Source: a virus. From it: a DNA stretch of 64,000 bases. Positions 5,706-63,628 of this stretch are shown here, one piece after another. The notes below the pieces were generated by a model. That model searched no databases. It was not told the origin of the DNA and worked only from the letters and a program-made list of their open reading frames with translations. The stretch is taken from positions 32,001-96,000 of the IMG/VR virus record IMGVR_UViG_3300042505_001173. One strand, given 5' to 3'. The stretch's first letter is position 1. The number at the start of each line of letters is the position of its first letter. A program made the translations under genes and the position numbers.

Positions 5706-8700
5706 TTAGCTTTCCAATTTAACTAAAGTTAAATACACTGTGAATGATCCTGAGGTGGTATTCGTGTTCGTAACAGCAAGTTCTATATCAGTTGTAGGTG
5801 TAGTCTCATCGTTAAACCCGACCACCCCTGGTGAAATCAACACTGGGGTATTTGATGTTGTAATCACTTCCGCTATAACACCGGGTGTCGATGGATCCAC
5901 TGTCAGGGCCCTGCTAGCATCTGCGGCTCTCGCTGACTTACTAGAGTAGATACGAACCCAAGCACCACCTACAGTGGAATTAGTACTAACTTTATATAGA
6001 GCATATCCTTTAAAGCCTACTAATGTTAAATTTGCAATTGCTCCAGCAGCGATTGTACCTGTGGTACCTTGAATAGTAGTTCTACTTGACGTACTTCCCC
6101 CACCACTACCAACTAGCGTTGATGGGTTAACCCATGTTAGACTTGTTCCTGTACTAGCTAACAAATAGTTATTAGCACCTAACGCAGTACCAGCTAATGA
6201 GGTACCGTTACTCGTAACAATACCTGCTGTAGGAGCTGTTAATCCACTACCAACCAACGTTGATTTATCAATCCAAGTGTAACCTGTATTAGTTGAATTT
6301 ATAGCTAATAATTGATCAGCGATACCGTTTGTACTTGATAAAACAGTTCCATTACTCGTAACAATACCTGCTGTAGGAGCTGTTAGTCCACCACTACTTG
6401 TTCCTGATCCTGAGGTAGCTGTAGCTGTAAGATAGTTATTTCGGTAAGTAATACTACCTGCACCTGTACCAGCCATTGTGATCGTGACCGGTACAGTTGA
6501 TACAGTCACCCTACCTGCACCTGACCATCCACTACCGGAGCTGTTAATATTACCTTCTGCTATTACTTCTGTACCGTTTTTAATCGTAAGAGATGCAATA
6601 CTCCAGGCCTGTGGTGTGGTAGACGCTGAACCGGTGCCGCCAGTTATCCAATAATCTACTGGTGTACCCGTAAGTGAAGCTGGAATTGTAATAGTAGCAA
6701 TAGTGGCAAGTGCAGTGTTTGTTTTTGTTGCAACGGTACTTTGAACCATCACTACAGCGCTCGCCCCCCCACTACCGCCACCACTACTGATACCAGTTAA
6801 AGTACCACCGACCGCTAATACCTCTATAAACATATCGGATACAGTCGCAACAGCTGTTGAAATACCACTTAACGCGCAGGTGTACTGTCCAGATAGATTC
6901 ATTGTATATGATGCCCCAGCTCGTAACGTTGTCATAAACGTTTCACTTGAACCTACTCTACGTATGGACGTTCCATTAATATCGACATATATGTAATGGA
7001 CACATATTGGTGCTGAACCTGTAAACTTTGTTTTAAAACCTACTGTAATACTTACCATAGTATCTACTGTTACCGCAGGTATCTGTAGCGATATCAATTG
7101 TGTAGGTGCACTCAGACTTGCATATGAAGAATTTGATCCATCATGTAGCAGCCATTGCGATCCAGTTTTTTCTGTCGTTTGTGTCGCAGGTAACGTTTTT
7201 GTACCTGGATCATGAACAGCAATAGCGTTAGAATTAATCATCGAAGATGATCCACCACCTAACTTAGATGGGTCAACCCATCTTAGACCTGCTCCTGTAC
7301 TAGCTAACAAATAGTTATTAGCACCATACGCAGTACCATTTAACGTAGTTCCTGTACTAGTTACAATACCTGCAGCGGGTGCGGTAAGACCCCCTACACC
7401 ACCCCCACCACCCGAGGATATCGGAATATCTGCAGCCAACGCTTTACCGTACACCAACCAATAAAAACCCGCTTCCCTCCCGTCATACCCACTCAAATCC
7501 TGTCTAAAATATTTTACCCCTGTGATATTCCCGTTCGTATCTGTGATTTCATCACATATCTGAAACTCTGAATCCCCGTAAATACTACCGGTCGTCGTTG
7601 TGGATGGCATGCGAACCGATGATGACCAACCATACAGACTATTAGCACTCATAGGTTTTGGTAGGGTTAACGTACGAACAATGTATGCAGTGTTGGGGGC
7701 CACCATCGCTACATAACCCCATTGCATTATAAACCCATTTGGAAAAATTTGATAACCTGGACTTTGCATTAACGAATTTAATCCTGATGGGCCAGAACCA
7801 GTTCCTGGAACCGCAACATGGTACTCTGACCATAATCTAATTTCACCGTTAGTGGCCGTGGCGTTTGGGTTCTCATACTTGTACGTTCCACCTGGGGGGA
7901 CAACAAACGTAATATTTTCTAACGCTTCGTTACTCGTCTCACCTACGTTGATACCATCGACAGTAACTTTATACCGGTTCGGAGTCGAATTTCCTAGTAC
8001 GATATTAACAATTCTATCACCGGTATCGTTGTTAGTATACGGTGTATTAGGGGTGCGAGAACTCATAACATTGACCCAAGAACCAACACCAACAACATTT
8101 GGAGTGCCACCACTCCCGCTTCCCACCAACGATGATTTAGCTACCCACTCAGGAACCCCGGTTGAATTTATTGTTAAAACCGTATCGTTATTTCCATTAG
8201 ACGAGGATATTGCTGTACCGCTACTATACAAGAACCCTTTTGGGTTAGATGTAGTTGTTACGAGTCCTAAACCACTCAACGAATTCCATTCATAGCTTAC
8301 CGTTGTACCCGTCAACTTCGTAGATAAAAGTTGTTTGTCAGACGCTCCAGCTAACCCAGAAACTGTGGTACCATTACCAACCAACACTCCCGTTGGGGTG
8401 GTTGACAACCAGCTCGGTAAATTATTTGGAACAGGTGGTGTGATCCATTCAAAACCATCTTTGCTTGAATTTATAGCTAATACCTGCCCGCTAGTATTTG
8501 AAGCATCAATTGGAATGCTACTTATTGGGTTTGTACCATCGCTCCATAAAACACCTAGACTGGGTTGAGTAGATACATTTAACCAAGCTGGTGTAGAACT
8601 AACTGTTGATACCTGACTAGTAACATAATCAGTCATGAATTTTTTATGAACTAACGTATAGTCATCACCACTAGCAGCATATATTGCATCAGAGGTGTAT

Positions 8701-51972: not shown

Positions 51973-53457
51973 CTAAAAACTGATACTTTCGTATCTTGGA
52001 GAGTTAACAACCTCCATCATCATACCTTCAGGTGATAAAATCTCATCTTGCTCACCTGTTATATACTTCAAGATATTTGGACTAAAACCTGAAATCATAC
52101 AGGTATTAGGAGTATTATGTACTACTGGAAAATTGCCAGAGTTAGCATTAACATTCCAGAATACTAACTTAGGAATTGTATATCCAGCAATTTCAAATGA
52201 CGATCTAATTGTTTCATAGAACGTTTCAACCGCTGAAGCTTTAATTTGACTACGAGTAATAGCATTAAATTCCATATCAGAAATGATATAAATTGTTCCA
52301 ACCATATCACTAGGTGACAACTGATTAGTAATAGCTGCTTGTAGAATTAATTTAAACACTGCTTCAAGGTCTGTTGACATACCCCATTCAGCGTGTGAAA
52401 GATTATGAACCTTTTCAAAGATATTATTACCTTTTAAATCTTGAATTCTTGGGGTTTCACTAAACGTAATGAATTTGTCACGATATGGACCTTTTGCTCG
52501 TTCAGCAAAATAAATTGCTAACGATATACAAACTTCCATTGGAAGACCTGACATTGAACCACTAACATCAGCTACAACGATAGCGTTACTATCAACATCA
52601 ATTTTTGGTAAGTTTTTCCATAAAATTTCTGCTTCATCTGGTTTAATGTCACTTGTCCAATTGTTTAAAATTTTACCAACGATTTGATATGGATATAAAG
52701 TACTAGCGTTAACATGAACTTTCCCGTCTTTAGCTAATGTAATAAATTCTTCATAACGGGTAGCATCATTTCTTGCAAATGCTTTGCGATGTTTTAGTAA
52801 ACATTGACTTGGTAACTTAGAATAAGTAATGGTATCCCATTGTTTAGCACTCATACGATTTTCAGCAACTTCAAGATATCTGTTCAAATTTGAACATAAT
52901 TTACGATAATCTTTTGATGATAGCCCAAAAGCTTTACGCGTTAAATTACCTAATCGGACTGATTCTTTACTTGAAGTATTGATACGTTTTAACCATTTAC
53001 CTAAAATTGAAATAGGTTGATTTGATGTGATACCCTCAAGATCTCTACGTGATTGATCTTTCATTAAACTAAAAGCATATGATTCACAAGGTGTACCGAC
53101 AACTGAATAAAGATCATCCCATCTTCCGTATTCAGCAACGAGGTCTAATAGGTTTTTTGTTTGATCTGGGTAGTTACGAGCAAGCCATTCTAATTGAATA
53201 CGAAATGGTCTTCTTTGACCTTGACCACCACGAATATCTCTAAACATGTACATTAACCGTACAGCAATTGTCTTTTCTTGTGCAAATGCACGTGTAAACA
53301 AACTTAAAATTTCACTTTCGGTTCTTGATCTAATTGATCCACCTTGAGCAAAGAAATCAACACAATTGTTTAAAGATGAATGGTTAGTAATAGCACCGTT
53401 TTGTGTTGTTGAATGATTCATTTGATTTGAAATCGCTGATAAGAATTTTTCGGTCAT
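51973..53457 (-). CDS. Ro60/TROVE-like helical domain + vWA domain protein (DUF2828 type); start revised to MTEKFL
   Basis: TTQNGA, RDIRGGQGQR, YGRWDDL, KW, LYPYQI, MIDAS DVSGSM, ISDMEF, VFWN, ISGFSP; GGAG RBS 6 nt before ATG 53457. Confidence 0.8.
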   Translation of the reverse strand: MTEKFLSAISNQMNHSTTQNGAITNHSSLNNCVDFFAQGGSIRSRTESEILSLFTRAFAQEKTIAVRLMYMFRDIRGGQGQRRPFRIQLEWLARNYPDQTKNLLDLVAEYGRWDDLYSVVGTPCESYAFSLMKDQSRRDLEGITSNQPISILGKWLKRINTSSKESVRLGNLTRKAFGLSSKDYRKLCSNLNRYLEVAENRMSAKQWDTITYSKLPSQCLLKHRKAFARNDATRYEEFITLAKDGKVHVNASTLYPYQIVGKILNNWTSDIKPDEAEILWKNLPKIDVDSNAIVVADVSGSMSGLPMEVCISLAIYFAERAKGPYRDKFITFSETPRIQDLKGNNIFEKVHNLSHAEWGMSTDLEAVFKLILQAAITNQLSPSDMVGTIYIISDMEFNAITRSQIKASAVETFYETIRSSFEIAGYTIPKLVFWNVNANSGNFPVVHNTPNTCMISGFSPNILKYITGEQDEILSPEGMMMEVVNSPRYESISF

Positions 53458-53466
53458 TTTGTACTC

Positions 53467-54198
53467 CAAGACATTAATTGTTAAATTGCGGATACTGTCT
53501 TTATAACTAGATGCATAAGTCATTTTCAATAATGAGTTGTTTAATTGCTGGAAGCATCTATAAGTGTTTAGGTTTTACCCTAAAAATATAAACTTGAAAC
53601 AAACTTATATTTTTAAGATCGAATGTTCCAACCAATACACCTCTAAGTCTGTCAGGACTTAGTTTATTTCATGGAGACTATTTTTAATCGCTGTATGTGC
53701 GGTTATTGGAACACCCAATTTTTAAAAATATAGACCTGTTTTTAGCAACCCACATTCATTCCAATAAGATTAGATATGTAATTGCTGTAAGTGAGTTTTA
53801 TAACAGGTCTACATCTGTACATCAATATGAGGTTTTTCACGATGATCGATCACTTATTGTGACCATCAAACGTTTAACCTCTCTGCATTAAAATTATATG
53901 CTGTACTACACCTACTTGGAGGTGCCATCTTAAACCAAGATGGAGCAAGATCTTATTAACATTTTCGATTATTGCTGTTAAGATCTTTGATAAAAGAGCG
54001 GTCACGATCTAAATTTAACATTTGCAGTGTTTATAAAATTGCTGTTGAGATCGTTGATTTTACTAATAACTTTCAAGACCTTATTCACGTTTTCGAGTAT
54101 GAGTCGATTATTGTTGCAGTTAAGGTCTTACGTAAACTAGATTCTGTTTATGTGTTCAGATTAGAGGTCTGATATTAAATGGTTGCTGTTCGAATCTA
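53467..54198 (-). ncRNA. array of about 9 hairpin RNA units with conserved ACAGCAA motif (Y-RNA-like array)
   Basis: Units at 54137-54198, 54074-54129, 54003-54054, 53946-53987, ~53805-53913, 53731-53811, 53624-53713, 53507-53560, 53467-53501; each is stem + ACAGCAA-like motif + variable insert + complementary stem. Confidence 0.8.
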
Positions 54199-54206
54199 TA
54201 AAACGT

Positions 54207-54235
54207 ATTATAATGATCTAAAAAAATTAAATCAA
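54207..54235 (-). promoter_or_regulatory. sigma70-type promoter driving the RNA array + TROVE-like gene
   Basis: TTGATT-17-TATAAT, 8 nt before the first unit. Confidence 0.8.
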
Positions 54236-54248
54236 CTATATCTTTAAA

Positions 54249-55202
54249 TTAATACGCTTCAAGCCAGCTACCTGACAACCCACCTTTAACATACGAGGTA
54301 GGTTTACTTTCAAAGAAGTTTGTATGCTCAGGTGAGCCAATTAATTCATCAAACCACGGTACAGGATTATCTTTAACATTAAAGTTACCTTTGAACCCCA
54401 TTTGAATCAAACGACGATCTAACAAATATTTCATATATTCTTTAACATCGTTTTTAGGTAAACCTTCAATGTCACCCATTTCATACGCTAATTCAATGAA
54501 TTTTTCATCTAATTCGTAGAATTTACGAGAAATATCATAAACTTGTTTTTTAAACTCATCGTTGACGATACGAGGATGTTCATCAATATACGTTCTAAAC
54601 AGCATAATCAAACCTTCACAATGTGCTTGCTCATCAATGATAGACCATAGATTAACTTCACTCATACCTTTAAACAAACCACGTCTTGAGAAGTTTAATA
54701 GCATGATGAACGTTCCAAATAATGAAACACCTTCAGAAAACACATTCTTAACTAACGATAAAGCTTTACCTTTATGAGTCGAGGTATCGTTATCACCCAT
54801 AAAATCAATCTTGCTATACATTTGCTCATATTCTAAGAATGCTTCAAAATCTGATTCAGGTAAATTTAAAGTAGTCAATAAAGCTGAGTAAGCTCTTTGA
54901 TGTACACCTTCACGAGCTGCAAACGATAAAAGCATTTGTTGAATTTCGTTATTTTTAAATGTAGGTATCAAATTATTCGTATACATTGAAGCAACTTGCG
55001 CGTCACTCTGAGTAAAGAACTTTAAGATCTGATGAATCAGATTCTTTTCTTGAGGAGTGAGGTTGTTTTGCCAATCAGCAACATCTGGACTAAAATCCGT
55101 TTCCTCATGTGTCCAATGTGAACGTTCCGATTGAAGAGCCATCTCAACAGCCCATGGGTAGCTAAAAGGTTTGTATGTTTTACTTACTTCTAATACTGAC
55201 AT
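54249..55202 (-). CDS. nrdB: ribonucleotide reductase class I beta subunit
   Basis: YKPFSYPWA, FFTQSD, REGVHQRAY, EGVSLF, DEQAH, NFFE. Confidence 0.93.
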   Translation of the reverse strand: MSVLEVSKTYKPFSYPWAVEMALQSERSHWTHEETDFSPDVADWQNNLTPQEKNLIHQILKFFTQSDAQVASMYTNNLIPTFKNNEIQQMLLSFAAREGVHQRAYSALLTTLNLPESDFEAFLEYEQMYSKIDFMGDNDTSTHKGKALSLVKNVFSEGVSLFGTFIMLLNFSRRGLFKGMSEVNLWSIIDEQAHCEGLIMLFRTYIDEHPRIVNDEFKKQVYDISRKFYELDEKFIELAYEMGDIEGLPKNDVKEYMKYLLDRRLIQMGFKGNFNVKDNPVPWFDELIGSPEHTNFFESKPTSYVKGGLSGSWLEAY

Positions 55203-60625: not shown

Positions 60626-61357
60626 TTACTTTAATGATAACGATCTATCAAATGCATCAATATAATAATCGTGTAATTTGTCTAAGTAATTAGAATTTCG
60701 TAAATCTTTAAATACTAAATTTTCAATTGAGAACTCACCGCCTCGTTCGAGTCCAGCTTGTCTCATATTTTTGATTTTTTTACGAAGTTCTTTAATTTTA
60801 GCGCAATTTTTACTATCTTTAAATCCGTCAATGCGTTGTTTTAAAGCTTGTGATTTTACATTGATAGCGTATTCGTTTACTTCACGTTCAATTCCTTTTT
60901 TACGTTTGGGTTGAGTAACCCATTCGTCATTTTGCAAGCTGTACACGCCAGTTGAATGGTGTGGCTCATCTTCTAGTTGTGTATAAACTTCAACAGGAAA
61001 ATTAAAGATTGTAATATCGTGTAAATCATTCCATATCTGATTTTTATCTTTTAATATATCAGCTAATTCAAACCCGCATTCACCGCAGTCTGAGTCACTT
61101 TTATTAATTATAACATGAACATCGATATCTGAAAATCTGGTATAGTTATAATTTGCTAAACTACCAGTCATTACGATGTCAGTTATATGATACATAGGAT
61201 CAAGATCTAAATTTTCAAAATATAAGTTAGCAATTTTTAACAATTGACGTCTTACTTTTGCTTTTAGTTTGTTGTTGTCCCATAATCTTGAATTTAATTC
61301 AGAATGATATTCGAAACTGTATGATTCGATTAAGAATTGTGTTAATGATTGTTTCAT
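60626..61357 (-). CDS. Pol-beta-superfamily nucleotidyltransferase
   Basis: TGSLANYNYTRFSDIDVH, PVEVY, GEFSIENLVFK.LRN; TATAAATA at 61389-61396. Confidence 0.8.
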   Translation of the reverse strand: MKQSLTQFLIESYSFEYHSELNSRLWDNNKLKAKVRRQLLKIANLYFENLDLDPMYHITDIVMTGSLANYNYTRFSDIDVHVIINKSDSDCGECGFELADILKDKNQIWNDLHDITIFNFPVEVYTQLEDEPHHSTGVYSLQNDEWVTQPKRKKGIEREVNEYAINVKSQALKQRIDGFKDSKNCAKIKELRKKIKNMRQAGLERGGEFSIENLVFKDLRNSNYLDKLHDYYIDAFDRSLSLK

Positions 61358-62187: not shown

Positions 62188-62302
62188 CAAGATTCATTTT
62201 AATTTCAATTATTCTACCAACTGAACTACATAACCTTTCGGTTATGGTGGGAATCGAACCCACGACACATTGATTCCGATTATATATTGCTGTTAGAATC
62301 TT
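62188..62302 (-). ncRNA. Y-RNA (YrlA)-like RNA: ACAGCAA stem enclosing a circularly permuted tRNA body
   Basis: AAGATTC-TA-ACAGCAA...TCAAT GTGTC GTGGG TTCGATT CCCAC CATAACC GAAA GGTTATG TA GTTC AGTTGGTA GAAT A ATTGA...GAATCTTG. Confidence 0.85.
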
Positions 62303-62428: not shown

Positions 62429-63628
62429 TTAATAATTAATTTCAATTAACGGAAATAGCAATCTAAATGCTGTACCGTGGTTTGATTCAGCTGTATTTGA
62501 GTCGACGATAATATGACCATTAGCGTCATGTACCATACCGCTAACGGTTGACAATCCTAAGCCTGTACCTTCACCAATAGGTTTTGTAGTAAAAAATGGA
62601 TCAAAAATATGATCAATTACAGTTTGATCAATACCTGTACCAGTATCTAGAACACGTAATTCAATATAATCATTTGAAATAATATGTTGAGCACACGATG
62701 TACAAATTTGATTATGAATATTGACTTGTTTTAATGAAACTACAATAGTACCACCATTTTTCATGGAATCACGAGCATTAATAATCAAATTAGTTAAAAT
62801 TTGATGTAAATCAATAGCATCTATTTGAATATCAAGATAGTTGTCGACATTTGTTTCAAGGTGAAACCTACTAGTTAATGCTGGACCTACCATTGATGCA
62901 ACATCGTATATTACTTCTTGTGTTGGTCGTATTTCTATATCTTTATCAGCTGAGTTTTGACGTGAATAAGCTAGCATTTTACTAATCAAGCTAGATGCGC
63001 GTTTACTAGCAACGTTAACTGCGTTTACATTGTATATAAAGTCAGCTTTGCGTTGTTCATCCGGACAATCTTCTGCTAATAATAAGTTGAGTTCGTTGTA
63101 ACCTAATATACAGTTTAAAATATTATTAAAATCGTGTGCTATACCTGCTGTTAACCGACTAAGGCTTTCGATTTTTTGCATCTGGTTAACTTGTTTGTTT
63201 AATAATAGTAAAGCGGCTTTATTTTTTTCACGCTCAGTAATATCTTTAAACACACCCATATAGCCAATTATATTACCGTCATCGTCATTAATTGTAGATG
63301 GTCTAACAGATACTTGATGTTTACCTAACGTCATTGTAAACTCTTGACAGCTTGATAATTTTTTGATTAGTTCTTTTTGATTGTTAGTATTTTTATGAAA
63401 CATAACAATATTAACGCCAATCATTTTATTAACGTTAAAAGATGGGAATTTTTTTTGAATCTCTGATTCTGCAGCAGTAAAAATTTTTACTGCGCTATCA
63501 TTATAATAAACAACGTTGCGATCTGCATCTGTAATAACAACAGCATCGTTTAATGAATTTAAACCTTTTGTTAGACGAAAATTACATAGACTGAGATTTT
63601 CATTGGGTGTAGCTGTTATTGTTGGCAT
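62429..63628 (-). CDS. PAS-domain sensor histidine kinase
   Basis: PAS (FHKN, FKDITE); H box AGIAHDFNN; N box NLIINARD; G1 DTGTG; F box FDPFFTTK; G2 GTGLGL. Confidence 0.92.
   Translation of the reverse strand: MPTITATPNENLSLCNFRLTKGLNSLNDAVVITDADRNVVYYNDSAVKIFTAAESEIQKKFPSFNVNKMIGVNIVMFHKNTNNQKELIKKLSSCQEFTMTLGKHQVSVRPSTINDDDGNIIGYMGVFKDITEREKNKAALLLLNKQVNQMQKIESLSRLTAGIAHDFNNILNCILGYNELNLLLAEDCPDEQRKADFIYNVNAVNVASKRASSLISKMLAYSRQNSADKDIEIRPTQEVIYDVASMVGPALTSRFHLETNVDNYLDIQIDAIDLHQILTNLIINARDSMKNGGTIVVSLKQVNIHNQICTSCAQHIISNDYIELRVLDTGTGIDQTVIDHIFDPFFTTKPIGEGTGLGLSTVSGMVHDANGHIIVDSNTAESNHGTAFRLLFPLIEINY

What the first reader, a model, noticed from the sequence alone, without database searches (positions are those of the whole stretch)
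53643..54172. Array payloads resemble isolated tRNA anticodon stem-loops
Seen (minus strand): TCAGA-CC TCT AA-TCTGA (54156-54172, Arg UCU-like, but C33); TCGA-CT CAT AC-TCGA (54093-54107, Met CAU-like); AACA-CT GCA AA-TGTT (54017-54031, Cys GCA-like canonical loop); TCTA-AT CTT AT-TGGA (53760-53774, Lys CUU-like); CTAAGTC-CT GAC A-GACTTAG (53643-53662, Val GAC-like, 6-nt loop). Four have 7-nt loops with A at position 37, three of them with U33. The array thus supplies anticodon loops without bodies, while the 62.2-kb RNA supplies a body without a loop. Known: host anticodon nucleases (PrrC, colicin D-type, VapC, PARIS AriB) cleave specific anticodon loops, and Ro60 systems are often linked to RtcB RNA repair. 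Inference: a decoy panel against tRNA-cleaving defences, or parts for tRNA repair. Stems are short, so chance resemblance is possible.
Basis: inference. Interest (0 to 1): 0.78.

Follow-up and report, generated by a model that had tools for sequence, protein, structure and literature searches.

The report
Anticodon-arm mimics on Ro60-partner RNAs
Three of the five hairpins are real copies of tRNA anticodon arms, carried on small "handle" RNAs encoded just upstream of a phage protein shaped like the RNA-surveillance protein Ro60. This design recurs in many unrelated phages and may serve as bait for host enzymes that read or cut tRNA anticodons.

Summary
Within this window alone they are no more than chance would give. 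Comparison with other phages decides the matter.

- **Supported (three):** the Arg-UCU-like (54156-54172), Met/Ile-CAU-like (54093-54107) and Cys-GCA-like (54017-54031) hairpins are the best-conserved parts of their units in related phages. One shows compensatory stem changes.
- **Not supported (two):** the "Lys" and "Val" hairpins are not anticodon-like.

Each unit is a module made of a closing stem, an ACAGCAA-type motif and a payload. Such modules precede the Ro60-shaped DUF2828 gene in most of 79 distantly related phage loci. In 89 independent short payloads, 7-nt loops with U33 and R37 occur 23 times against 3.4 expected (0 of 1000 shuffles). In other phages the same module carries a whole circularly permuted tRNA, and its anticodon arm sits in the same place.

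The payloads are therefore real anticodon-arm mimics on Y-RNA-like partner RNAs. Their function is untested. I favour baits for host proteins that read or cut anticodon loops. I found the module neither in Rfam nor in the papers searched. This scan met the same system before in at least 27 other genomes.

The parts
54207..54235 (-). sigma-70-like promoter (TTGATT, 17 nt, TATAAT) in front of the array
   Evidence: Matches 10 of 12 positions. The same hexamers are kept in L001, L002 and L003.
54138..54198 (-). module M1: closing stem TAGATTC/GAATCTA, motif AACAGCAAC, payload with the Arg-UCU-like hairpin
   Evidence: orthologue alignment A2 shows closing-stem covariation
54156..54172 (-). anticodon-arm mimic 1: 5-bp stem, loop CCUCUAA (UCU, C33, A37, A38)
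   Evidence: Invariant core across 6 orthologous modules. The same 15-mer forms the anticodon arm of ARAGORN-called viral tRNA-Arg(UCU) genes.
54075..54129 (-). module M2: closing stem AAGACCTT/AAGGTCTT, motif AACTGCAAC
54093..54107 (-). anticodon-arm mimic 2: 4-bp stem, loop CUCAUAC (CAU, U33, A37)
   Evidence: Loop kept while the stem changes on both sides in L003. The exact 15-mer lies inside two predicted viral tRNA-Met(CAU) genes.
54004..54054 (-). module M3: closing stem (AC)GATCT/AGATC(GT), motif AACAGCAAT
54017..54031 (-). anticodon-arm mimic 3: 4-bp stem, loop CUGCAAA (GCA, U33, A37, A38)
   Evidence: Kept in L002 and L003; same loop on a different 5-bp stem in L064. No tRNA with the same 15-mer was found.
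53947..53987 (-). module M4: handle with a short payload and no anticodon-like hairpin
   Evidence: Both stems covary in L001 and L002, but the 'Lys-like' hairpin is not conserved.
   Evidence: The hairpin is conserved in position with a covarying stem, but has 6-7 bp and loops of 6-8 nt.
53508..53560 (-). module M8: closing stem TAGATGC/GCATCTA, motif TTCCAGCAAT; payload hairpin with loop AUUGAA (orthologues AUUUGGC, AUUUGGA)
   Evidence: weak Rfam match to Dictyostelium Class I RNA
53468..53501 (-). module M9: short handle (motif TCCGCAAT) next to the ribosome-binding site
51973..53457 (-). Ro60-shaped protein (Pfam DUF2828 + DUF7788), 494 aa
   Evidence: Pfam. The AlphaFold model (pLDDT 88) has Ro60 structures as its top twelve Foldseek hits: 1yvr at TM 0.62, also 9kop and 2nvo.
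62189..62302 (-). stand-alone handle RNA whose payload is a tRNA body without an anticodon loop (YrlA topology)
   Evidence: Sequence. Rfam YrlA RF02553 scores 41.2 bits against a gathering score of 69, E 5.7e-8 in a local search.

Best explanation
The 790-nt spacer upstream of the Ro60-shaped DUF2828 gene encodes, from one promoter, about nine small RNA modules. Each has a closing stem followed by an ACAGCAA-type motif (the 'handle') and a variable payload. The handle is most likely the docking site for the Ro60-like ring, as the conserved stem of a Y RNA is for Ro60 (inferred from co-occurrence).

In modules M1-M3 the payload is a mimic of a tRNA anticodon arm: Arg-UCU, Met/Ile-CAU and Cys-GCA types. 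In related phages the same handle displays whole circularly permuted tRNAs, and the window's 62.2-kb RNA displays a tRNA body. I put the structural part at about 0.85.

The most likely function is inferred and untested. The ring-bound RNAs would present anticodon arms as baits to host proteins that recognise anticodon loops, above all anticodon nucleases of anti-phage systems. The baits would bind and titrate these proteins so that working tRNAs survive. Variants at position 33 would make such baits poor substrates but good binders. The stated confidence is for this functional reading.
For: Handle tied to the gene:
- Modules occur at 1.49 per kb on the sense strand upstream of the gene in 65 loci, against 0.06 per kb antisense and about 0.3 per kb inside the gene.
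- They are present in most of 79 loci whose protein is 38-60% identical to the window's.

Protein is Ro60-like in fold.

Anticodon geometry in 89 independent short payloads:
- 59 hairpins with 7-nt loops against 21.3 +/- 4.6 expected.
- 23 with U33+R37 against 3.4 +/- 1.9.
- 10 of the form Y-U-NNN-A-A against 0.35.
- None of 1000 shuffles reaches any of these values. Coding-DNA controls give 15.4, 2.6 and 0.26.
- After collapsing duplicates the counts are still 56, 22 and 10.
- Only the 7-nt loop size is enriched, and the commonest stem length is 5 bp.

Whole permuted tRNA mimics sit in the same handle with the anticodon arm directly 3' of the motif. Un-permuted, ARAGORN calls them as Thr-UGU, Ile-UAU, Arg-UCU, Gln-UUG, Ile-GAU and Tyr-GUA, as read by eye.

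Window hairpins 1-3 are conserved, and stems covary. The C33 form of hairpin 1 occurs in predicted viral tRNA-Arg(UCU) genes.

Context:
- 35 of 79 loci have tRNA genes within 2 kb.
- The Bas63 homologue gp130 is reported to counter the Ppl defence (PMC11482910). I found five handle modules in the tRNA cluster next to it.
- Phage tRNAs are proposed to escape anticodon nucleases through anticodon-loop changes (PMC10264068).
Against: - No binding, cleavage or expression data exist for this phage.
- The window's array alone is not statistically distinguishable from chance.
- Only three of about nine modules carry an anticodon-like hairpin. M4, M6, M7 and M9 do not, so bait display cannot be the whole function of the array.
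- Stems of hairpins 2 and 3 are 4 bp, not 5.
- The loop of hairpin 3 contains CUGCAA, which is also a variant of the handle motif, so it could be a second protein site.
- The mechanism of Ppl, and how gp130 counters it, are unknown; the preprint proposes DNA degradation, not tRNA cleavage.
- The host, and therefore its nucleases, are unknown.
Confidence: 0.45

Rival explanations
1. Adaptor, not decoy. As in the Ro60-Y RNA-PNPase machine, the handle docks on the ring and the tRNA-like or anticodon-like payload recruits a tRNA-binding enzyme (modification enzyme, nuclease, ligase or synthetase). The complex then works on tRNAs or tRNA fragments, for repair, quality control or selective decay.
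For: Y RNAs are known tethers, and YrlA tRNA-like domains are substrates of tRNA enzymes (PMC4201824). Thermus phage phiLo Ro60 with its Yrl RNAs assembles with host PNPase (PMC12135203). Frequent placement inside tRNA gene clusters. The loops keep the sequence determinants I know for t6A (U36-A37) and i6A (A36-A37-A38) (own knowledge).
Against: No ligase, RtcB or kinase-phosphatase gene is in the held 147.6 kb, but the record is about 54% complete. An isolated anticodon arm is a poor recruiter for enzymes that need the tRNA elbow. There is no direct data.
Confidence: 0.25
2. Likeness by descent only. The short payloads are decayed leftovers of permuted tRNA mimics. Only the handle matters, for example to load or regulate the protein, and the anticodon-like loops have no role.
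For: Full mimics, body-only and arm-only payloads coexist in the family. Several window modules have no anticodon-like hairpin.
Against: The hairpin is the most conserved part of the M1 payload while the linkers drift. It is identical in a phage whose protein is only 40% identical. The loop is kept while the stem changes on both sides in M2. The enrichment is specific to 7-nt C-U-NNN-A-A loops.
Confidence: 0.1
3. Generic U-turn loops for RNA-RNA pairing. The 7-nt Y-U-N-R loops are fast-pairing recognition loops like those of antisense RNAs. They guide the ring to complementary RNA targets rather than mimic tRNA.
For: U-turn loops are a known device of antisense RNAs (own knowledge: Franch et al. 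1999). The triplet in the middle is the variable part within a fairly constant frame.
Against: The same position in the same handle is occupied by anticodon arms of complete tRNA mimics. C32 and A38 are also enriched, and the commonest stem length is 5 bp. Position 33 is often not U, which would break a U-turn.
Confidence: 0.08
4. Chance. Short A/T-rich hairpins merely happen to look like anticodon loops.
For: Within the window alone the counts are within the shuffle range. Hairpins 4 and 5 do not hold up.
Against: Family-level enrichment with 0 of 1000 shuffles reaching the observed values. Conservation and covariation of hairpins 1-3.
Confidence: 0.03

Closest known systems
Ro60 (Rsr) with Y RNAs, especially the tRNA-mimicking YrlA of bacteria and phages (Rfam RF02553; Chen et al. 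2014, PMC4201824)
   Same: Ring-shaped Ro60-fold protein encoded next to small RNAs that have a terminal stem and a variable module. One RNA (62.2 kb) has the YrlA topology: T arm, sealed acceptor stem and D arm, with the anticodon stem running into the handle.
   Different: The protein is DUF2828/DUF7788 rather than Pfam TROVE, and a profile search finds no PDB relative by sequence. The handle has its own ACAGCAA-type motif. The array modules match no Rfam family and the 62.2-kb RNA stays below the YrlA gathering score. Payloads include isolated anticodon arms and, in relatives, complete permuted tRNAs with intact anticodon loops, which YrlA lacks. There are up to nine modules in one transcription unit.
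Thermus phage phiLo Ro60 with Yrl1 and Yrl2 (PMC12135203; PDB 9kop, 9l5y)
   Same: Phage-encoded Ro60 homologue with partner RNAs encoded directly upstream. It is the second-best structural match of the window protein.
   Different: The phiLo RNAs are described with a CGAA motif in an internal bulge. No anticodon-arm or tRNA mimicry is reported, and there are two RNAs rather than an array.
Phage tRNAs with anticodon-loop changes proposed to escape host anticodon nucleases (van den Berg et al. 2023, PMC10264068)
   Same: Virus-encoded anticodon loops that depart from the host norm. The C33 form of the Arg-UCU loop is shared between hairpin 1 and predicted viral tRNA genes.
   Different: Those are complete, presumably decoding tRNAs. 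Here the anticodon arm stands alone on a handle RNA and cannot decode.
Dictyostelium Class I RNAs (Rfam RF01414; Kjellin et al. 2021, PMC7919456)
   Same: Same plan: a short stem joining the 5' and 3' ends, a conserved motif ending in ACAGCAA next to the 5' arm, a variable remainder, and about 50-60 nt in length. M8 aligns end to end with the Rfam consensus.
   Different: The score is far below the gathering threshold (16.1 against 41.5 bits). These are eukaryotic RNAs said to be unique to dictyostelids, their reported binder is an RRM protein, and no link to a Ro60-like protein is reported.
Circularly permuted tRNA genes of some algae and archaea (own knowledge)
   Same: The tRNA parts are encoded in permuted order, with the acceptor ends joined by a loop.
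   Different: Those are processed into normal tRNAs. Here the permutation point carries the handle, and ARAGORN does not call the genes unless they are un-permuted.

Membership tests
tRNA anticodon stem-loop (geometry) | 7-nt loop | tested here: met
   Hairpins 1-4 have 7-nt loops; hairpin 5 has 6 nt. Hairpin 4's loop ends can pair, leaving 5 nt.
tRNA anticodon stem-loop (geometry) | 5-bp stem | tested here: inconclusive
   Hairpin 1 has 5 bp; hairpins 2 and 3 have 4 bp; hairpin 5 has 7 bp. Across the family the commonest length is 5 bp (25 of 51).
tRNA anticodon stem-loop (geometry) | U33 and purine 37 (with Y32 and A38 common) | tested here: met
   Hairpins 2 and 3 meet it. Hairpin 1 has C33, but the same loop occurs in ARAGORN-called viral tRNA-Arg(UCU) genes. 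Family enrichment is 23 against 3.4 expected.
tRNA anticodon stem-loop (geometry) | conserved as a hairpin in orthologous units | tested here: met
   Met for hairpins 1-3. Not met for hairpin 4. Hairpin 5 is conserved but not anticodon-like.
Y RNA / YrlA (Rfam RF02553) | reaches the Rfam gathering score | tested here: not met
   The array has no match. The 62.2-kb RNA scores 41.2 bits against 69.
Y RNA / YrlA (Rfam RF02553) | encoded next to a Ro60 homologue; terminal stem plus variable module | tested here: met
Y RNA / YrlA (Rfam RF02553) | bound by the Ro60 homologue | not testable with these tools
   Needs RIP/CLIP or EMSA. Here it is inferred only from co-occurrence.
Ro60 / TROVE protein | HEAT-repeat ring plus vWA domain fold | tested here: met
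   AlphaFold model (pLDDT 88, pTM 0.89). The top twelve Foldseek PDB hits are Ro60 structures, aligned full length at TM up to 0.62.
Ro60 / TROVE protein | sequence membership (Pfam TROVE, or a sequence match to solved Ro60) | tested here: not met
   Pfam gives only DUF2828 and DUF7788. A profile search of PDB sequences finds no Ro60.
Dictyostelium Class I RNA (RF01414) | reaches the Rfam gathering score | tested here: not met
   16.1 bits against 41.5, E 0.91 on a 121-nt search.

The most novel reading that the evidence does not exclude
Phages carry an exchangeable panel of anticodon-arm and whole-tRNA decoys, each docked through a common ACAGCAA handle on a Ro60-like ring. The panel neutralises host tRNA-targeting immune nucleases, and each phage's set of displayed anticodons reflects the nucleases its hosts deploy. 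The same handle plan in Dictyostelium Class I RNAs would then point to an ancient, unrecognised partnership between Ro-like proteins and handle RNAs that spans viruses and eukaryotes.
Probability: 0.3. Interest if true: 0.9.

Novelty: new variant of a known kind. Interest (0 to 1): 0.72.

Why it matters
Ro60 and its Y RNAs have been studied for forty years, yet the purpose of the tRNA-like part of bacterial Y RNAs is still unknown. This phage family strips the mimicry down to a bare anticodon arm in some RNAs and extends it to a full tRNA with an intact anticodon in others. That points to the anticodon loop as the part that matters, and it makes the question testable.

A tractable member already exists. 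Phage Bas63 of E. coli K-12 has a homologue of the protein that is reported to counter a defence system, with handle RNAs beside it. If the baits work as proposed, this would be an RNA-based counter-defence against tRNA-cleaving immunity. It would also explain many unannotated stretches and spurious small ORFs inside phage tRNA clusters.

Tried and rejected
- **Close DNA relatives.** Megablast of the locus against GenBank phages found nothing. The metagenome-contig scan with the single protein also found nothing. Close relatives came instead from the protein collection and IMG/VR. One look-up, P0007, had no DNA.
- **Rfam.** No family at gathering thresholds in the whole window. In E-value mode the array gave only noise, apart from the weak Class I RNA match.
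- **PDB by sequence.** A profile search gave no Ro60. Only the fold comparison did.
- **Covariance model.** The MAFFT alignment of 37 short modules (A4) left the 3' arms ragged. I did not build a model from it and relied on my own stem-plus-motif scanner, with shuffles and coding-DNA controls. That scanner has a background of about 0.3 hits per kb and made a few false calls over real tRNA genes in L076 and L086.
- **Exact 15-mers in IMG/VR.** Most matches are coding DNA and mean nothing. The Cys-like 15-mer lies in no predicted tRNA.
- **Assembly in trans.** I considered and rejected the idea that the arm-only RNAs pair with the 62.2-kb body to rebuild a tRNA. I saw no complementarity between them by eye and ran no formal search.
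- **The phage's own tRNAs.** The anticodon arm of the phage's tRNA-Gln(UUG) does not match module M8.
- **RNA repair genes.** Searches for RtcB and two RNA ligase families in the record found nothing. The record is about 54% complete and one family's control did not ring, so this says little.

Full report
**The locus.** On the minus strand, a ribonucleotide reductase small-subunit gene (54249-55202) is followed by a 790-nt spacer. Next comes a 494-aa gene (51973-53457) that Pfam assigns only to DUF2828 and DUF7788. An AlphaFold model built on 33 homologues is confident (pLDDT 88, pTM 0.89). Its twelve best Foldseek matches in the PDB are all Ro60 proteins aligned over their full length: Xenopus 1yvr at TM 0.62, Thermus phage phiLo 9kop and 9l5y, and Deinococcus 2nvo. 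A sequence profile finds none of them. The gene therefore encodes a Ro60-shaped protein that is not a sequence-level TROVE member. The record is a 147.6-kb IMG/VR contig with 35% G+C. Its relatives carry T4-type portal and baseplate genes. CheckV rates it 54% complete, and it holds two tRNA genes (Gln-UUG, Pro-UGG) just past the window's end.

**The array.** After a promoter-like site (TTGATT, 17 nt, TATAAT; 54235-54207), the spacer holds about nine units of one plan. Each has a closing stem of 5-9 bp, then 1-4 nt and a motif of the type A-C-A-G-C-A-A, then a variable payload, then the 3' arm. A tenth unit stands alone at 62189-62302. Its payload is a T arm, an acceptor stem sealed by GAAA and a D arm, and the anticodon stem runs into the handle. 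Rfam's YrlA model matches it below threshold: 41.2 bits against 69, E 5.7e-8 in a local search. The array units match no Rfam family.

**The observation.** Taken alone they prove nothing. In 1000 dinucleotide shuffles of the 731-nt array, 7-nt-loop hairpins are as frequent as observed (5 against 6.7). The U33+R37 subset is matched in 284 shuffles, and the strict Y-U-NNN-A-A form in 73.

**Close relatives.** Four further arrays, from phages whose protein is 76-82% identical (L001, L002, L003/L004), and two at 57-60% (L005, L007), were fetched. In the orthologues of M1 the hairpin core is invariant while the linkers on both sides drift. One relative (L003) has the canonical U33 form, CUUCUAA. 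The closing stem shows double changes at four pairs (five in the whole structure counted), which none of 500 shuffles reaches. A phage with only 40% protein identity (L075) carries the identical 17-nt hairpin inside a handle with a completely different closing stem. For hairpin 2 the loop is kept ([C/A]UCAUA[A/C]) while the stem changes from UCGA/UCGA to UUCAA/UUGAA in L003. Hairpin 3 is kept in L002 and L003, and its loop recurs on another stem in L064. The conserved element in M6 does not preserve hairpin 4, whose loop ends can also pair. Hairpin 5 is a conserved structural hairpin of 6-7 bp, with loops of 6-8 nt that differ between relatives.

An alignment-based scan of IMG/VR returned 80 loci, 79 of them from phages whose protein is 38-60% identical to the window's. 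A simple scanner (motif plus best closing stem, with no use of the payload) finds modules upstream of the gene in most of them. Density is 1.49 per kb on the sense strand, 0.06 per kb antisense and about 0.3 per kb inside the gene. In all 160 unique payloads, only one loop size is enriched: 7 nt, 146 against 62.2 +/- 7.5.

I then left out the window's close relatives, the long payloads and T-loop-like loops. The remaining 89 short payloads gave these counts:

| Measure | Observed | Shuffle expectation | Coding-DNA control |
|---|---|---|---|
| Hairpins with 7-nt loops | 59 | 21.3 +/- 4.6 | 15.4 |
| Loops with U33+R37 | 23 | 3.4 +/- 1.9 | 2.6 |
| Loops of the form Y-U-NNN-A-A | 10 | 0.35 +/- 0.6 | 0.26 |

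None of 1000 shuffles reaches any observed value. Collapsing duplicates leaves 56, 22 and 10. The commonest stem length is 5 bp. Loops include CUUUUAA, CUGUUAA, CUGUAAA, CUUCCAA, CUUGAAA, CUUUCAA and CUGCAAA, which are the standard anticodon loops of Lys, Asn, Tyr, Gly, Ser, Glu and Cys tRNAs (the assignment to tRNAs is from my own knowledge).

**Whole tRNA mimics in the same handle.** Many long payloads (85-113 nt) read, from the motif onward, as a short linker, a 5-bp stem with a 7-nt loop, a 5-nt variable loop, a T arm, an acceptor stem sealed by a tetraloop, U8-A9, a D arm and N26. That is a complete tRNA, circularly permuted between positions 26 and 27. ARAGORN does not call them as they stand. 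When I cut them in the acceptor loop and trimmed the linkers, it called them as tRNAs, and the dominant anticodon was the one read by eye. These were Thr-UGU (L045), Ile-UAU (L055), Arg-UCU (L082), Gln-UUG (L071) and Ile-GAU (L060). A class II Tyr-GUA, with a long variable arm and a CCA end joined to the 5' end, was called in L053, L066, L072, L073 and L076, where it was the commonest call in four of the five and second in L053. The window's 62.2-kb RNA gave no dominant call, as expected for a body without a loop. The hairpin of the short payloads sits at the same place as these anticodon arms: 3-25 nt after the motif (median 10), against 4-13 nt in the full mimics.

**The C33 problem.** The 15-mer core of hairpin 1 occurs as the anticodon arm of ARAGORN-called tRNA-Arg(UCU) genes in giant-virus bins (such as L091 and L107) and in two phage contigs (L099, L101). 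C33 is therefore a feature of some viral Arg-UCU tRNAs and not a defect of the mimic. In the short payloads, loops of the form C-x-NNN-A-A have x = U 13 times, C 7, G 3 and A 2. The core of hairpin 2 lies in two predicted viral tRNA-Met(CAU) genes, and that of hairpin 3 in none. With 4-bp stems such identities are weak evidence on their own.

**Function.** Shown here:
- the modules are real;
- they are tied to the Ro60-like gene;
- a large share of payloads are anticodon arms or whole tRNA mimics.

Known from the literature:
- Y RNAs dock on Ro60 by their stem and use the rest to engage other proteins, and YrlA mimics tRNA (PMC4201824).
- A phage Ro60 with upstream partner RNAs assembles with host PNPase (PMC12135203).
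- The homologue in phage Bas63, gp130, 33% identical to the window protein, is reported to counter the Ppl defence (PMC11482910). I found five handle modules in the tRNA cluster beside it, including a full mimic with loop CCGGUAA.
- Phage tRNAs are proposed to evade anticodon nucleases by loop changes (PMC10264068).

Inferred: the ring-bound RNAs offer anticodon arms as baits for host proteins that read or cut anticodon loops. I put this at 0.45. An adaptor role in tRNA repair or turnover gets 0.25, and the remainder is divided among vestigial likeness, generic U-turn pairing loops and chance.

**Novelty.** Tethering by Ro60-type rings and tRNA mimicry by Y RNAs are known. Four things are not in Rfam or in any paper I could find: the ACAGCAA handle, its pairing with DUF2828-type proteins, the arrays, and the display of bare anticodon arms or complete permuted tRNAs. 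I class it as a new variant of a known kind. Other agents of this scan described the same system independently in at least 27 other genomes. I did not count that as evidence.

Noticed in passing
window 53508-53558 (-), module M8: The handle plan (stem joining the ends, motif ending ACAGCAAU next to the 5' arm, variable rest, about 50 nt) aligns end to end with Rfam's Dictyostelium Class I RNA consensus. The score is far below threshold (16.1 against 41.5 bits). Those RNAs are described as unique to dictyostelids and of unknown mechanism (PMC7919456). DUF2828 proteins are mentioned in plant papers.
   Followed up: partly
L091 1760-1833, L107 2521-2596, L099 798-873, L101 21-93: Predicted tRNA-Arg(UCU) genes of giant-virus bins and phages have C instead of the near-universal U at position 33 of the anticodon loop (loop CCUCUAA).
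   Followed up: partly
L089 (Escherichia phage Bas63, MZ501086) 5730-6564: Five handle modules lie in the tRNA cluster just downstream of gp130. Two of them lie under the small minus-strand ORFs bas63_0137 and bas63_0138, which are therefore probably not genes.
   Followed up: partly
window 53830-53945 (-): Between M4 and M6 there are two adjacent hairpins followed by a variant motif (UACAGCAU) and a longer stem. The arrangement is kept in L002 and L003. It is an atypical module whose structure I did not resolve.
   Followed up: no
window 53573-53620 (-): An A/U-rich inverted repeat lies between M7 and M8. Relatives have a much stronger hairpin at the same place (for example L001 about 2845-2885). 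It could be an internal terminator or a processing site that splits the array.
   Followed up: no
window 53508-53560 and 53732-53810 (-); L001, L002, L003, L007, L071, L087: A second recurrent loop type, A/C-U-U-(U)-G-G-A/C, occurs in M8 orthologues and resembles the loop of the Gln-UUG full mimic of L071 (CUUUGGA). It has G at position 37, unlike the phage's own tRNA-Gln loop (CUUUGAC).
   Followed up: partly
window 62429-63628 (-): A 399-aa PAS-HisKA-HATPase histidine kinase gene lies directly upstream of the 62.2-kb tRNA-body RNA. This is unusual cargo for a T4-like phage, and I saw no response regulator nearby.
   Followed up: no
window 60626-61357 (-): A 243-aa protein gives a weak match to the nucleotidyltransferase domain (NTP_transf_2), about 0.8 kb downstream of the tRNA-body RNA. 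The gene is kept in L002. A link to RNA 3'-end tailing is conceivable but untested.
   Followed up: no
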